Shown: positions 30,179 to 58,939 of the stretch, in pieces | How the letters are laid out: every line of letters begins with the position of its first letter | Numbering within the stretch: the stretch's first letter is position 1 | IMG/VR virus record: IMGVR_UViG_3300031555_004294 | Location: 96,001 to 160,000 of that record | DNA from: a virus | Taxonomy: Duplodnaviria; Caudoviricetes | Reading direction: 5' to 3' (one strand) | Length of the DNA stretch: 64,000 nt | The notes under the pieces: generated by a model | Database searches by the model: none | What the model was told of the DNA's origin: nothing | Seen by the model: only the letters and a program-made list of their open reading frames with translations | Made by a program: the position numbers and the translations under genes

Positions 30179-30727
30179 TTAAATTTTGAGTTCTTCATTG
30201 AAAATGATTTTTCTTAGGAAATGGCAAAGTTCATTTGTGTTCACATGATATTCTTTGCACTGTATACTACTAATTTCGATAGAAGTTCTGATTAGAAGAT
30301 CCCTTACTTCAAAATTTGAAAAATTATAAGAACCCTTTATGTTATCTATATGGAATGTATAGTTATCAGAGCGTTCTTCTATATACTTTATGCGATAAGA
30401 CCAACCAGTATTATTGTTGATGTCATCAACCAAATCACCAAGTTCAACATAATGATTCTTGTAAGTTTCTTTGTGATCTAAGTAGTAAAAGTTTAGACTA
30501 TTTTGTCTTTGAGCTTCATTAATTTTAGTTTCCAATTCGCTAGCACACATTAAATCAGCCTTAGAATTTATACAGCTCCTAAGAGACTCTAAATCTGAAG
30601 AATAACCATACAGATTAAAATTTTGTAAATTGTCTATAGTACTAGCTTGAGAATATACGTTACTTTGAAGGTCATAAAGTTTATATTCTAGTTCTCTAAT
30701 TTTACTTAACAATTCTTCATTTTCCAT
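30179..30727 (-). CDS. Hypothetical protein with N-terminal coiled coil
   Basis: GAGG RBS, 182 aa. Confidence 0.6.
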   Translation of the reverse strand: MENEELLSKIRELEYKLYDLQSNVYSQASTIDNLQNFNLYGYSSDLESLRSCINSKADLMCASELETKINEAQRQNSLNFYYLDHKETYKNHYVELGDLVDDINNNTGWSYRIKYIEERSDNYTFHIDNIKGSYNFSNFEVRDLLIRTSIEISSIQCKEYHVNTNELCHFLRKIIFNEELKI

Positions 30728-52986: not shown

Positions 52987-53011
52987 TATGTATTTGTTTA
53001 ACAACTAATTA
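52987..53011. promoter_or_regulatory. Back-to-back divergent late promoters
   Basis: TA-N6-TGTT-t-AACA-N6-TA. Confidence 0.7.
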
Positions 53012-53494: not shown

Positions 53495-53577
53495 TTTTTA
53501 TTCTTAAAAAATATGTACTAACATTAAAATAGTCTAAATTACCATAACGATTTAAATAAAGGAGGTAAACACTCGAA

Positions 53578-55541: not shown

Positions 55542-55886
55542 GTGAATCCATACTTAAAAAAATTTAAGAGTCTAACAACTTGGATTACTGATGATAGAGT
55601 TGAGAACTTATTAGAGGGAACTTTATATCTAAAAGAAGCTTTCAAATTTATCGAGTTACTTTTAGTGCTTGATGAGAATAATTTTGAGTATGAGCTTGTT
55701 TCTGGATTTAAAGGAAAGACTCATTTTAAAGAAGAACAGAATATGTTCAAGGATATCGTTATAGAAGTGTCTGAACAAGAATTAAGAAATGTAGTTGAGT
55801 TTTTTAACAGTTCTGTAAAGTATAATGAAACTTTTAGCGTACAAGAATTATCAAACACAAATCTAAAGATTCAACTAAGGGACTGA
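55542..55886 (+). CDS. Hypothetical protein
   Basis: CAGGTG RBS, terminator hairpin 55873-55903. Confidence 0.65.
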   Translation: MNPYLKKFKSLTTWITDDRVENLLEGTLYLKEAFKFIELLLVLDENNFEYELVSGFKGKTHFKEEQNMFKDIVIEVSEQELRNVVEFFNSSVKYNETFSVQELSNTNLKIQLRD

Positions 55887-55959
55887 AATATGTCCCTTAG
55901 TTGATTTTCTATAAACAAGTGTAACGAATTTTAAACTAAATTTTAAATATATATTCTGA

Positions 55960-56420
55960 TTGTGTAAGAAGGAGAATATATGGTGGTGCACAAGAAGTGA
56001 CGATTATATTCTTTCTGTATGTTTGCAAGATACAGAGAAGACGAAGGCCAAGTCAACCATTGCAATTCTTACATATCATAGAGATAGGTTGGTCTTACCT
56101 TGGATCCAACCAAACAATCTTACCTAAAAAGCCCTAAAGAACTCGTAACGTGGAATTACTGAGATGTATGATAAAGGCGGCCAAGATGTACCACGAGAGT
56201 TGTTGCTCCAAATAATACAACCACATCAGGCTATGAGTTTGCTCTAGAGAGCAGTAGATTAGTTTATGCTAGACCATCCCATCCTCCTGCCCTAGCCAAC
56301 TAATCGAGAACGGTAAGCTCTTCTTTTCAAAAGAAGTTGAAGAAAACTCAAAATTCATAATGGTTAAAACGTTATGAGACATAAAAAAGAGAAGTGTGGG
56401 ATGGCACTTCTTTTTTTTTT
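55960..56420 (+). ncRNA. Candidate structured non-coding RNA or attenuator leader
   Basis: Early-type promoter 55945-55957, no credible ORF, raised GC, many inverted repeats, ends in the gaagtg...cacttc + T-tract terminator. Confidence 0.65.
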
Positions 56421-56463
56421 TACAAGATCACATAATTTCAATTCTAAGGAGACAAAAAAGAAA

Positions 56464-58203
56464 ATGGGACAGGCAAACATAGATCAACTTTTTTTGAACT
56501 CAAATATCATAGATGAAGCAGAAACAAAAGAAAAAATTAAGTCTACACTAGCTAAAATAGCGAGAGAAGTTAGTAAGTCTTTAGGTCCATACGGTTCAAC
56601 TACTATCATTGAAGATAGACTTGGTGACCATTATATGACCAAGGATGGGTATACAATCCTTAAGGCTATGAACTACAACTACGATATTTCTCGTACAGTT
56701 CTAGATATAGTTAAGAAGATTTCTAAAGCATTGGTTAGAACTGTCGGTGATGGTTCTACATCTTCTGTAGTCATTGCCAATGAATTATTTGATTCAATTA
56801 CTTCAATCTCAGATAACTTACAGTTAGCTCCTCAAGATATTCTTGAAATTTTCAATGTTTTAGCTGAGAACTTTGAAGCTATGATTTTGAATGAAGCAAC
56901 ACAAATTACAGATGAAAACTTTGATGAAACTATCACAAAGATTGCAACTATTTCTTGTAACAACAATCAAGAATCTGGTAAGCTATTTTGTGATATTTTC
57001 CGAACCATTGGTAAGTATGGTTTTATCAACTTAGAGAATGGTAAGTCTAGTAAGGACTATTTTGAGAAAGTACAGGGTATTGAAGTTCCTAGAGGATGGA
57101 TCAATGCTCGTATGGCAAACCAAAATGACAGAATTTCAACAGAATATGAAAATGCACTTGTGTTCATGATGAATGATATTATGTCTGATGACGAAATTGA
57201 TTTCATTGCAAGTGTTATGGACAATGTATGTATTAAGCAGAATGTTCCTCTTATCATAGTAGCAACTAACTATACTTCTTCTGTTAAATCGTTCTTTGAT
57301 GCAAATCTTCAGAAGAATAAGCATCTTCCTGTAGTTGCTATCGACATTGACGCATCTACTAAAAATGGTAAAGATAGATTTGAAGATTTAGCATTAGCTC
57401 TTGGTTGTCATTATTATGACAAGTACAATGGAATGGAAAATCTTAATGAATTCTCTATCAGAGATTTAGGAAAATGTAAGAGATTTAAGGGAGATGACTT
57501 ACGTTCCACTTTCATTGATGGTGAAGGTTATGTTTCTAACGCAGAAAGACTTCAGGAACACATAAAAAATCTTGAAACTGAATATGAAAGACTTCAGCAT
57601 ATGGATGAAATTCACGATAACCGTGAAAAGGATCTCTTCCAAATTAAGAAACGTATTGCTACTTTAACATCCTCTATGGCAACTCTTTATGTTGGTGGTG
57701 GTTCTGAAATGGAACGTACTACTAGAAAGTTCTTAATGGAAGACGCTGTTTATGCATGTCGTTCTTCTATAGAAAACGGATATGTAGTTGGAGGTAACTT
57801 AATTCTTCCTAAGATTTTGGTAAAACATGAAGATGTTATTGTTGAAAATACTGTAAGAGATGAACGCTTAAAGTATTTGACTAACATCTACGAGAATGAT
57901 GAAGATTTTATGTCAGCAATTATGTATATCGTTGAAAATATACTTTCGGCTTTCAAACAGTCATTTATGACCGTTTTAAGAAATGCACACATTAGTAATG
58001 AAAATGCTGCAAAGATCATCAAAACTTGTATTGATGAAGATAAGATTTACAATGTGAAATTGAGAAGATATGAGAACGATAATGAGACCAATGTAATTAA
58101 CTCGGCTGAAACTGACATAGAAATCATCAAGGCTAGTTTCTCTATCATTGGTTTATTGGCAACTAGCAATCAGTTTATTACTAGCAATCCTGTAAGCAGA
58201 TAA
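56464..58203 (+). CDS. groEL: Phage chaperonin, GroEL-like
   Basis: SLGPYG, TKDGYTI, VGDGSTS, VGG..E, EDAV.A, GYVVGG. ATG 56464 with AAGGAG RBS. Confidence 0.9.
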   Translation: MGQANIDQLFLNSNIIDEAETKEKIKSTLAKIAREVSKSLGPYGSTTIIEDRLGDHYMTKDGYTILKAMNYNYDISRTVLDIVKKISKALVRTVGDGSTSSVVIANELFDSITSISDNLQLAPQDILEIFNVLAENFEAMILNEATQITDENFDETITKIATISCNNNQESGKLFCDIFRTIGKYGFINLENGKSSKDYFEKVQGIEVPRGWINARMANQNDRISTEYENALVFMMNDIMSDDEIDFIASVMDNVCIKQNVPLIIVATNYTSSVKSFFDANLQKNKHLPVVAIDIDASTKNGKDRFEDLALALGCHYYDKYNGMENLNEFSIRDLGKCKRFKGDDLRSTFIDGEGYVSNAERLQEHIKNLETEYERLQHMDEIHDNREKDLFQIKKRIATLTSSMATLYVGGGSEMERTTRKFLMEDAVYACRSSIENGYVVGGNLILPKILVKHEDVIVENTVRDERLKYLTNIYENDEDFMSAIMYIVENILSAFKQSFMTVLRNAHISNENAAKIIKTCIDEDKIYNVKLRRYENDNETNVINSAETDIEIIKASFSIIGLLATSNQFITSNPVSR

Positions 58204-58321
58204 TTTTTTTTAGAGTATAACCTTTTACGAGGTTATACTCTAAAACTTGTAACAATTTTAGTTTTAAATATATATTCTTCCCTTAGAAAGAACTAACTTT
58301 AAAAAGGTAGGACAAAAAACA

Positions 58322-58939
58322 TTGAAAGAGCTTACTAAAAAACAACTATTTGATTTACAGATCAACTATACAAAATATATTATCGAATATGGCGATAAAT
58401 GGTGGGAAGAAAAAGAAAATTGGATAAGCATTATAACTTGGGATAACTTATCCGAAGATTTCATAAGGGAATTTCAAGATTATTTAGACTTTTGCGTCAT
58501 TCCTGCAACTCAAGTTTTATCCGAAGATTTCATAAGGGAATTTCAAGATAAACTTGATTGGAATTCAGTATCAATAAACCAAGATCTATCCGAAGATTTC
58601 ATAAGGGAATTTCAAGATAAAATTTATTGGATTGGAATATCTGGCCATAAAAGAGATTTATCAGAAGATTTTATAGAAGAATTCCAAGATAAAGTTAGCT
58701 GGAGTTTGATCTCAATATATCAGAAATTATCGTGTGATTTTATAAGAAAGTTTCAAGACAAAGTTTACTGGACTTCAATTTTTAATCATCAAGAAAATTT
58801 ATCTGATGATTTCATATTGGAATTCCAAGATAAAATAAGTTGGAATAACTTATGTTGGAACAATCCATCCAAATGTAATATTTTTAAAAAATGGAGGAAG
58901 TTAATAGATGATAGCACTAACCAAACAACAGGAGTTTGA
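58322..58939 (+). CDS. Tryptophan-repeat protein with LTKKQLFDL leader
   Basis: LSEDFIREFQDK.xW repeats, early-type promoter 58266-58278. Confidence 0.8.
   Translation: MKELTKKQLFDLQINYTKYIIEYGDKWWEEKENWISIITWDNLSEDFIREFQDYLDFCVIPATQVLSEDFIREFQDKLDWNSVSINQDLSEDFIREFQDKIYWIGISGHKRDLSEDFIEEFQDKVSWSLISIYQKLSCDFIRKFQDKVYWTSIFNHQENLSDDFILEFQDKISWNNLCWNNPSKCNIFKKWRKLIDDSTNQTTGV
58451..58620 (+). repeat. Intragenic 30-bp exact repeat, 69-bp period, three copies
   Basis: tccgaagatttcataagggaatttcaagat at 58451, 58520, 58589. Confidence 0.85.

What the first reader, a model, noticed from the sequence alone, without database searches (positions are those of the whole stretch)
55960..56420. Unrecognised ~460-nt structured RNA with a C-rich loop complementary to its own terminator
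Seen: an early-type promoter is followed by hairpins (gagaatata/tatattctt, tctgtat/atacaga, ggttgg/ccaacc, aactc..cgtgg/ccacg..gagtt, tgctct/agagca). The stem gattagtt..gctag/ctagc.aactaatc presents the loop accatcccatcctcctgcc. CCATCCCAT (56274-56282) can pair with GTGGGATGG (56396-56404), the loop and inner stem of the terminator. The same loop contains the anti-SD CCTCCT. The downstream chaperonin gene has no AACA-N6-TA promoter. Inference: either an attenuator or thermosensor controlling read-through into groEL, or a trans-acting sRNA that blocks AGGAGG ribosome-binding sites. It does not resemble tRNA, tmRNA, RNase P or a T-box.
Basis: partly seen in the sequence, partly recalled or inferred. 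Interest (0 to 1): 0.75.

Follow-up and report, generated by a model that had tools for sequence, protein, structure and literature searches.

The report
Orphan non-coding cassette before phage chaperonin
An uncultured AR9-like giant phage from animal gut carries a 0.5-kb insert just upstream of its chaperonin gene, with its own early promoter and terminator but no gene; it probably makes a ~457-nt RNA of unknown role, it matches nothing known, and all related phages examined lack it.

Summary
The sequence features are real. A perfect AR9-type early promoter at 55945-57 predicts a start at G55964. About 457 nt without an ORF follow, ending in a strong terminator at 56383-56421. A 19-nt C-rich hairpin loop holds CCATCCCA, the exact complement of the whole terminator loop TGGGATGG.

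- **No known relative.** There was no match in Rfam, Pfam, PHROGs, a 1.8-billion-protein library, phage, plasmid or viral-contig DNA, or 401 Bacilli genomes.
- **Weak evidence for structure.** Without the terminator the fold z-score is -1.2, equal to the genome background (-1.2 ± 1.5).
- **What does stand out.** GC content is in the top 1% of 250-nt windows. The loop is one of the four most C-rich 18-mers in 299 kb. The loop-terminator match occurs in 0.55% of shuffles.
- **Not a conserved groEL regulator.** At least 12 related lineages, AR9 included, join the upstream gene to groEL with a 40-90 nt gap. One relative has an unrelated cassette at the same site.
- **No covariation test possible.** Every copy found is identical.
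- **Expression.** One gut metatranscriptome contig covers 56094-56314, which is a weak hint only.

My best reading is a lineage-specific early non-coding RNA gene, possibly acting through its C-rich loop. A groEL leader or a functionless relic remain open. The scan noted this same stretch once before in an overlapping window, not on other DNA.

The parts
55871..55904 (+). Terminator hairpin of the upstream 114-aa gene. It is the ancestral one: the ATTCAACTAA...TTAGTTGA stem is shared with relative L027.
55915..55919 (+). ACAAG, repeated at 56422-56426. This 5-nt direct repeat brackets the ~507-nt insert. It could be microhomology or chance.
   Evidence: read from the sequence; the insert is delimited by comparison with relatives
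55941..55957 (+). Early (virion RNA polymerase type) promoter TTTTAAATATATATTCT. The core AAATATATATTCT lies at 55945-57, followed by 6 nt and then G55964 as the predicted +1.
   Evidence: AR9 consensus from PMC5312081
55964..56421 (+). Predicted ~457-nt non-coding transcript, from the predicted start to the terminator U-tract.
   Evidence: an RNA-library contig covers 56094-56314
55969..56000 (+). AAGGAG (55969-74) followed by a 6-codon mini-ORF ATG..TGA (55980-56000, MVVHKK). Both are mostly buried in hairpin 1 (unpaired probability ~0.3). Possibly a 5' stabiliser, a leader peptide or chance.
55972..56036 (+). 5' hairpins: GAGAATATA/TATATTCTT and TCTGTAT/ATACAGA.
56087..56111 (+). Hairpin GGTTGG...CCAACC. 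It contains the first of two TCTTACCT copies (56093-100 and 56118-125).
56119..56317 (+). Central GC-rich domain closed by CTTACC (56119-24) and GGTAAG (56312-17). It encloses three hairpins, including the C-rich-loop hairpin.
56257..56305 (+). Hairpin presenting the 19-nt C-rich loop ACCATCCCATCCTCCTGCC (56273-91). It holds the UCCC and CCUCC motifs. Unpaired probability is 0.8.
56383..56421 (+). Intrinsic terminator with arms 56383-96 and 56405-18 and a T-run to 56421. Its 8-nt loop TGGGATGG (56397-404) is fully complementary to CCATCCCA (56274-81).
56464..58203 (+). GroEL-like chaperonin gene. The true start is ATG 56464, behind AAGGAG. The 609-aa call from ATG 56374 reads through the terminator and is an over-extension.

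Best explanation
The element is a lineage-specific, self-contained non-coding transcription unit. It was inserted between the gp228-like gene and groEL of an uncultured AR9/PBS1-like jumbo phage.

Inferred chain of events, none of it measured:

1. The injected virion RNA polymerase starts at G55964 from a consensus early promoter.
2. It stops at the strong terminator near 56420.
3. This gives a ~457-nt RNA early in infection.

My preferred mechanism is a trans-acting regulatory RNA. Its exposed, unusually C-rich loop (UCCC and CCUCC motifs) would pair with G-rich ribosome-binding regions of host or phage mRNAs. The fully complementary terminator loop would serve as an intramolecular kissing partner that masks the loop or positions it. 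The 5'-proximal AAGGAG and mini-ORF may protect the 5' end.

Shown here:

- The promoter and terminator anatomy.
- The absence of coding signal.
- The insert status.
- The complementarity.

Inferred only: that the RNA accumulates, and every step of how it acts.
For: - **Promoter.** It is a perfect consensus early promoter. The other 6 perfect copies drive genes or tRNAs. The motif equals the AR9 early consensus with its +1 G (PMC5312081). The closest paralogue of the extended promoter is the one in the tRNA cluster, 89% identical over 37 nt.
- **Terminator.** It is strong, and AR9 polymerases terminate efficiently at predicted terminators (PMC5312081).
- **No coding signal.** There are stops in all six frames, the longest open frame being 65 aa. 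Codon scores are non-coding. There are no Pfam, PHROGs or phmmer hits.
- **Composition.** GC is in the top 1% of windows. The only other GC-rich non-coding tract in the genome is the 8-tRNA cluster.
- **Loop.** It is among the 4 most C-rich 18-mers in 299 kb and is predicted to be unpaired.
- **Complementarity.** The loop-terminator match is found in only 0.55% of shuffles.
- **Real arrangement.** The same arrangement is assembled independently in 4 other samples, and run contigs cross both junctions.
- **RNA library.** A gut metatranscriptome holds a 221-nt contig of the core and nothing of the flanks.
- **Other cassettes.** ORF-free early cassettes also exist in relative L005 at the same site and elsewhere in this genome.
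Against: - No homologue exists anywhere, so there is no covariation or conservation evidence.
- All copies are identical.
- The core folds no better than random windows of this genome.
- The loop finds no better targets in the phage genome than shuffled loops do.
- The RNA-library contig is biased by ascertainment, because the run was found with this very stretch. DNA carry-over cannot be excluded.
- The 8-bp complementarity is a post-hoc observation. Other partial partners for the same G-rich stretch exist, for example 56057-70.
Confidence: 0.4

Rival explanations
1. The element is a cis-acting leader. The inserted early promoter gives the chaperonin gene, which is late in AR9, an early transcript. 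The 457-nt leader would control read-through of its terminator. The C-rich loop would capture the 5' half and loop of the terminator (56390-404) as a pseudoknot antiterminator, possibly responding to temperature or to a factor that binds the loop.
For: - groEL starts 43 nt after the terminator on the same strand, and there is no late-type promoter between them.
- The loop:terminator-5'-half duplex (-17.9 kcal/mol) rivals the terminator hairpin (-16.0).
- A 15-nt complementarity at 80% covers the 5' arm as well as the loop.
- AR9 has 5' UTRs of up to 491 nt, and its GroEL is a late gene (PMC5312081), so an early promoter here would change its timing.
- Relative L005 also has a promoter-plus-terminator cassette at this exact site.
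Against: - At least 12 related lineages, AR9 included, express groEL without any such element.
- The terminator is strong, with a 14-bp stem and 11 U, and AR9-type polymerases terminate efficiently.
- No ligand or sensor motif was found, and there is no Rfam riboswitch or leader hit.
- The L005 cassette shares no sequence or architecture with this one beyond the promoter.
- No covariation test is possible.
Confidence: 0.2
2. The element is a functionless relic. A promoter-terminator cassette, of the kind that shuffles small accessory genes between phage genomes, landed here. It either lost its ORF or carried foreign non-coding DNA. The transcript, if made, would have no role, and the loop-terminator complementarity would be coincidence.
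For: - The element occurs in one lineage only.
- There is a variable insert at the same site in L005.
- A stem-loop followed by an early promoter at the left border resembles the PeSL cassette junctions of T4-like phages (PMC2839356).
- A 5-nt ACAAG repeat lies at both borders.
- The fold energy is not above background.
- An SD plus ATG sits at the usual distance from the promoter, but the ORF has only 6 codons. This could be a truncated gene start.
Against: - No frame retains any protein similarity or coding bias.
- GC of 0.43 is far above the 0.31 genome mean, whereas decaying DNA in this genome should drift towards AT-richness.
- Both the promoter and the terminator are perfect.
- Phage genomes tolerate little dead DNA. 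This is one of about 20 gaps of 250 nt or more in 299 kb.
Confidence: 0.25
3. The element is a small-protein gene. It would encode the 6-codon ORF (55980-56000) and/or the overlapping 46-codon GTG ORF (55997-56137, GTGA overlap).
For: AAGGAG lies 5 nt before the ATG, at the usual distance from an early promoter. The stop overlaps a GTG start.
Against: - The 46-aa frame has a codon score of -0.18, against a 5th percentile of 0.15 for real genes.
- It has no homologue among 1.8 billion representative proteins.
- The gene callers behind the 15-billion-protein collection did not call it.
- The SD and ATG are mostly paired.
- It would explain only 140 of the 457 nt.
Confidence: 0.05

Closest known systems
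C-rich-loop regulatory RNAs of Bacillota: S. aureus RNAIII and the Rsa family with the UCCC motif (PMC2790875, PMC2837412), and B. subtilis RoxS (PMC8216469)
   Same: - It is a multi-hairpin RNA. RNAIII is ~514 nt and this one ~457 nt.
- Its unpaired C-rich loop holds UCCC and CCUCC, suited to pairing with G-rich Shine-Dalgarno regions.
- It ends in a terminator hairpin.
- RNAIII also carries a small ORF.
   Different: - There is no sequence or Rfam similarity.
- It is phage-encoded and driven by a virion-RNA-polymerase promoter.
- No target has been identified.
- Here the terminator loop is G-rich and complementary to the C-rich loop, rather than being a second C-rich seed.
PeSL (promoter-early stem-loop) mobile regulatory cassettes of T4-like phages (PMC2839356, PMC4122927)
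   Same: - A terminator stem-loop followed by an early promoter bounds a lineage-specific insert in an otherwise syntenic region.
- Different inserts occupy the same site in related phages.
   Different: - PeSL cassettes normally carry small ORFs, whereas this insert has none.
- The phage family and polymerase are different.
- No recombination intermediates or repeated PeSL on the right border were shown.
Transcription attenuators and antiterminator leaders such as the T-box and other terminator/antiterminator switches
   Same: - A long leader ends in an intrinsic terminator just before a gene.
- An upstream segment can pair with the 5' half of the terminator with comparable energy.
   Different: - There is no T-box or other leader match in Rfam.
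- The element is not conserved with the gene it would regulate.
- The competing pairing would be a loop pseudoknot, not a nested antiterminator.
Non-coding and long-UTR early transcripts of jumbo phages: AR9 (PMC5312081) and phiKZ (PMC8244752; review PMC13282480)
   Same: - It has the same promoter class as AR9 early genes.
- Jumbo phages are reported to express ncRNAs of unknown function.
   Different: AR9 has no counterpart at this locus. Its gp228-to-GroEL gap is 41 nt. No described jumbo-phage ncRNA resembles this sequence.

Membership tests
Any Rfam 15 family (tRNA, tmRNA, RNase P, 6S, SRP, T-box, riboswitches, group I/II introns, GOLLD/ROOL/HEARO/OLE etc.) | Covariance-model score at or above the family's gathering threshold | tested here: not met
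   There is no hit at gathering score. The best sub-threshold hits are Qrr at 20.6 bits against a threshold of 50, and L20 leader at 15 against 58.7. ARAGORN finds nothing.
AR9-type early (virion RNA polymerase) transcription unit | Consensus AAATATATATTAT-(6N)-G(+1) upstream of the transcript | tested here: met
   AAATATATATTCT gattgt G lies at 55945-55964. It matches this genome's own 13-mer consensus perfectly (consensus from PMC5312081). Activity was not measured.
Intrinsic (factor-independent) terminator | GC-containing stem-loop followed directly by a U-tract | tested here: met
   A 14-bp stem, an 8-nt loop and 11 T, at -16.0 kcal/mol.
C-rich-seed sRNAs (RNAIII/Rsa/RoxS type) | Unpaired C-rich (UCCC) motif in a hairpin loop | tested here: met
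   The loop at 56273-91 holds UCCC and CCUCC. Unpaired probability is 0.8, and it is among the 4 most C-rich 18-mers of the genome. This is in silico only.
C-rich-seed sRNAs (RNAIII/Rsa/RoxS type) | Sequence or structure homology to a described member | tested here: not met
   No Rfam hit, and no DNA similarity in 401 Bacilli genomes.
C-rich-seed sRNAs (RNAIII/Rsa/RoxS type) | Specific pairing with the ribosome-binding regions of target mRNAs | tested here: inconclusive
   In the phage-genome scan the best duplex was -23.3 kcal/mol, against -21.6 to -25.1 for shuffled loops. The host genome is unknown.
Transcription attenuator or thermosensor of groEL | Mutually exclusive terminator and antiterminator pairings | tested here: inconclusive
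   The loop:terminator-5'-half duplex is -17.9 against -16.0 for the hairpin. The pairing is a pseudoknot that cannot be scored here, and there are no variants for a covariation test.
Transcription attenuator or thermosensor of groEL | Association of the leader with the regulated gene across relatives | tested here: not met
   It is absent upstream of groEL in at least 12 related lineages, AR9 included.
PeSL-like mobile promoter/terminator cassette | Stem-loop followed by an early promoter at the borders of a lineage-specific insert | tested here: inconclusive
   The left border has a stem-loop (55871-904) and a promoter (55941-57). The right border has a terminator but no promoter before groEL. 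A further perfect promoter lies after groEL at 58262. Recombination was not testable.
Protein-coding gene or pseudogene | An open frame with coding bias or protein homology | tested here: not met

The most novel reading that the evidence does not exclude
The cassette could be a portable RNA switch. A C-rich loop and a fully complementary terminator loop in one 457-nt early phage RNA would form a kissing or pseudoknot contact. That contact would either mask an anti-Shine-Dalgarno seed until it is needed, or act as an antiterminator that puts a normally late chaperonin gene under early, conditional control. This would be regulatory rewiring achieved by a single insertion.
Probability: 0.12. Interest if true: 0.6.

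Novelty: new member of a known kind. Interest (0 to 1): 0.3.

Why it matters
If the RNA is made and functional, it would be one of very few candidate regulatory RNAs in the AR9/PBS1 group of giant phages. These phages bring their own RNA polymerases. It would also show how a single promoter-to-terminator cassette can add an RNA regulator, or change the timing of a neighbouring gene, in one lineage.

As it stands, the element is an orphan. It has no homologues, no covariation and no measured transcript. It is a reasonable candidate for a Northern blot, not a discovery.

Tried and rejected
- **Known RNA families.** Rfam at gathering score and at E<10 gave nothing. ARAGORN found no tRNA or tmRNA.
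- **DNA homologues.**
  - blastn against 50,697 phage records and 72,556 plasmids found no match.
  - Related phage genomes G001-G005 matched only at the promoter.
  - The exact loop 18- and 19-mers gave only chance hits in unrelated coding DNA, both in IMG/VR and in 185,579 species genomes.
  - 401 sampled Bacilli genomes gave only 35-42 nt low-complexity matches.
  - The scan's own index held nothing on other DNA.
- **Further relatives of groEL.** The metagenome-contig scan returned only one distant GroEL.
- **Covariation.** This is impossible. Four other sample contigs and the DNA run contigs are identical to the window across the element.
- **Coding remnants.** All negative: PHROGs and Pfam on the open frames, phmmer of the 65-aa frame against 1.8 billion proteins, exact look-up of seven ORFs, and the codon log-odds test.
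- **Homology with the L005 cassette at the same site.** Local alignment is no better than shuffles beyond the promoter. The shared 9-mer GTGGGATGG is rare, occurring once per genome. However, one shared 9-mer between two such stretches is roughly what chance predicts, so I do not build on it.
- **Trans targets in the phage genome.** They are no better than those of shuffled loops.
- **Expression from the RNA run.** A single contig covers 56094-56314, from a run that was selected with this very stretch. This is a hint only. The uncovered flanks in that run prove nothing.
- **Fold z-score as evidence of structure.** Rejected after the genome-background control.
- **Covariance-model search.** Not run. 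The RNA exceeds the 400-column limit, and a single-sequence model adds little to blastn.

Full report
**Where this is.** The window is bases 96,001-160,000 of a 299,070-bp IMG/VR virus record rated complete.

- Its GroEL-like protein is 44% identical to that of Bacillus phage AR9/PBS1.
- The local gene order matches AR9: baseplate-wedge-like gene, a ~500-aa gene, a small gene, a ~110-aa gene, then GroEL.
- An earlier follow-up in this scan reached the same family assignment from the group II intron in the virion RNA polymerase gene.
- Sequencing runs holding the stretch are animal faeces and gut metagenomes.

**Anatomy.**

- The 114-aa gene ends at 55886 and has its own terminator at 55871-55904. 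groEL starts at ATG 56464 behind AAGGAG. The 609-aa call from ATG 56374 runs through a terminator and does not fit the N-termini of relatives.
- The 578 nt between the two genes are closed in all six frames. The longest stop-to-stop frame is 65 aa.
- TTTTAAATATATATTCT at 55941-57 is a perfect copy of a motif found 42 times in the genome with up to 3 mismatches. Nearly all copies lie 25-65 nt before a ribosome-binding site and start codon, or before tRNAs.
- The motif is the AR9 early promoter AAATATATATTAT-(6N)-G+1 (PMC5312081), which places the start at G55964.
- A 14-bp stem, an 8-nt loop and 11 T at 56383-56421 form a strong terminator of -16.0 kcal/mol. AR9 polymerases terminate well at such sites (PMC5312081).
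- The predicted product is therefore a ~457-nt RNA.

- All the listed hairpins, the 19-nt loop ACCATCCCATCCTCCTGCC (56273-91), CCTCCT, and the CCATCCCAT/GTGGGATGG complementarity are at the stated places.
- The terminator loop TGGGATGG is complementary over its whole length to CCATCCCA. GTGGGATGG occurs only once in the genome.
- A perfect complement of the 8-nt loop appears in the upstream 419 nt in 111 of 20,000 dinucleotide shuffles. Only 1 of 78 other terminators in the genome has such a complement.
- The loop is one of four windows in 299 kb with at least 11 C in 18 nt, and it is predicted to be unpaired.
- GC reaches 0.43, in the top 1% of 250-nt windows. The only other GC-rich non-coding tract is an 8-tRNA cluster.
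- The 'structured RNA' label is not supported by thermodynamics. The full-length z-score of -2.56 drops to -1.2 on both strands once the terminator is removed. Forty-four random 380-nt windows of this genome gave -1.2 ± 1.5.

**It is not coding and not a known RNA.**

- Rfam gives nothing at gathering score and only noise at E<10. ARAGORN finds nothing.
- Codon log-odds of every frame are -0.29 to 0.07. Neighbouring real genes score 0.27-0.45, and the 5th percentile of real 46-codon chunks is 0.15.
- PHROGs, Pfam and a phmmer search of the longest frame against 1.8 billion representatives are empty.
- None of the small ORFs was ever called as a gene in the 15-billion-protein collection.

**Comparative evidence.** This is the most informative result.

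- Five IMG/VR relatives have GroEL 84-85% identical. Further contigs have GroEL 53-85% identical. AR9 itself was also examined. All were checked upstream of groEL.
- In L006-L009, in the contigs of P0001, P0003 and P0005, in L025-L027, in L053-L058 and in AR9, the ~110-aa gene is followed by groEL after only 40-90 nt.
- The element is therefore a ~507-nt insert in one lineage. It lies just after the ancestral terminator and is bracketed by a 5-nt ACAAG repeat.
- One relative, L005, has a different ~250-nt cassette at the same site. It too has an early-type promoter, two long hairpins and a terminator (fold z -5.66). It shows no alignable similarity beyond the promoter.
- No homologue of the window's element was found in any of the following:
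  - the related phage genomes;
  - 50,697 phage records;
  - plasmids;
  - IMG/VR or species genomes, searched with the loop word;
  - 401 Bacilli genomes.
- The same phage occurs in at least four other samples and three further runs, with an element identical to the base. This shows the arrangement is real, but it leaves no variation for a covariation test.

**Expression.** One gut metatranscriptome run holds a 221-nt contig covering 56094-56314 with one mismatch, and holds nothing of the flanking genes. The run was found by searching with this stretch, and DNA carry-over cannot be excluded. I count this as a weak hint only.

**How it might work.** Two pairings involve the C-rich loop.

- As a loop-loop contact it would tie the central domain to the terminator hairpin.
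- As a 15-nt, 80% complementary duplex with the terminator's 5' arm and loop it would compete with the terminator. The energies are -17.9 for the duplex and -16.0 kcal/mol for the hairpin.
- The same G-rich stretch has other partial partners, for example 56057-70. Alternative pairings are easy to find in this RNA.
- A scan of the whole phage genome for loop targets gave nothing better than shuffled loops do. Any C-rich loop containing CCUCC will touch ribosome-binding sites.
- The AAGGAG and 6-codon ORF at the 5' end are mostly paired. They may be a 5' stabiliser of the kind known from Bacillus transcripts (my own knowledge, not tested here), a truncated gene start, or chance.

**Verdict.** I rank the readings as follows.

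| Reading | Confidence |
|---|---|
| Lineage-specific early non-coding RNA gene, probably acting through its C-rich loop as RNAIII/Rsa/RoxS-type RNAs do (PMC2790875, PMC2837412, PMC8216469) | 0.4 |
| Functionless relic of a promoter-terminator cassette of the PeSL kind (PMC2839356) | 0.25 |
| Leader that gives groEL early, terminator-controlled expression | 0.2 |
| Small-protein gene | 0.05 |

A local cis effect is not excluded.

The finding is a sound candidate for a simple RNA blot.

Noticed in passing
L005:2690-2985 (IMGVR_UViG_3300031555_004271): A related phage carries an unrelated ~250-nt ORF-free cassette at the same site upstream of groEL. It has an early-type promoter TTTATAGTTATATATTTT, two long hairpins and a terminator, with fold z -5.66. 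It contains GTGGGATGG, the same 9-mer as the window's terminator loop. That word occurs once per genome in both phages.
   Followed up: partly
G000:C1 ~292,590-292,830, minus strand (L032:795-1016 minus; outside the window): A second ORF-free early cassette lies in the same genome. The promoter AAATATATATTTT-(6N)-G is followed by ~220 nt and a terminator. The stretch holds GGGGATGG and a 17-codon hydrophobic mini-ORF (MVRLVKGMVLLVLSFLQ). There is no homologue in the related phages, and the fold z is -1.36.
   Followed up: partly
G000:C1:79,747-80,766 (L030:748-1766; outside the window): A cluster of 8 tRNA genes (Ser, Thr, Pro, Asn, Gly, Leu, Met, Lys) has two early-type promoters inside it. 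The second promoter is the closest paralogue of the element's promoter, at 89% over 37 nt. About 140 nt of GC-rich, ORF-free sequence precede tRNA-Ser (L030:600-747).
   Followed up: partly
window 56374-56463: Gene callers start the chaperonin at ATG 56374, giving 609 aa. That frame runs straight through the terminator hairpin and U-tract. The start that fits the ribosome-binding site and all relatives is ATG 56464, giving 579 aa.
   Followed up: yes
window 56093-56100 and 56118-56125: TCTTACCT occurs twice, 25 nt apart. Either copy can pair with GGTAAG at 56312-17, giving two alternative closing helices for the central domain. The RNA-library contig (56094-56314) starts at the first copy.
   Followed up: no
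window 58262-58278: Another perfect TTTTAAATATATATTCT early promoter lies just after the groEL stop and ahead of the 205-aa gene at 58322. groEL is therefore flanked by early promoters on both sides in this phage. In AR9, GroEL is a late gene.
   Followed up: no
window 53000-53011 and 53520-53531: Late-type AACA-N6-TA motifs sit just upstream of the 149-aa and 548-aa genes. They are the likely late promoters of the operon that runs towards groEL. Two further matches (55806, 55854) lie inside the end of the 114-aa gene and may be chance.
   Followed up: no
G000:C1:30,327 and 30,666 (outside the window): ATGGGATGG, the exact complement of the loop's CCATCCCAT, forms the start codon region of a gene behind AAGGAG at 30,327. 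It recurs in frame 113 codons later. The duplex energy of -20.8 is within the range seen for shuffled loops.
   Followed up: partly
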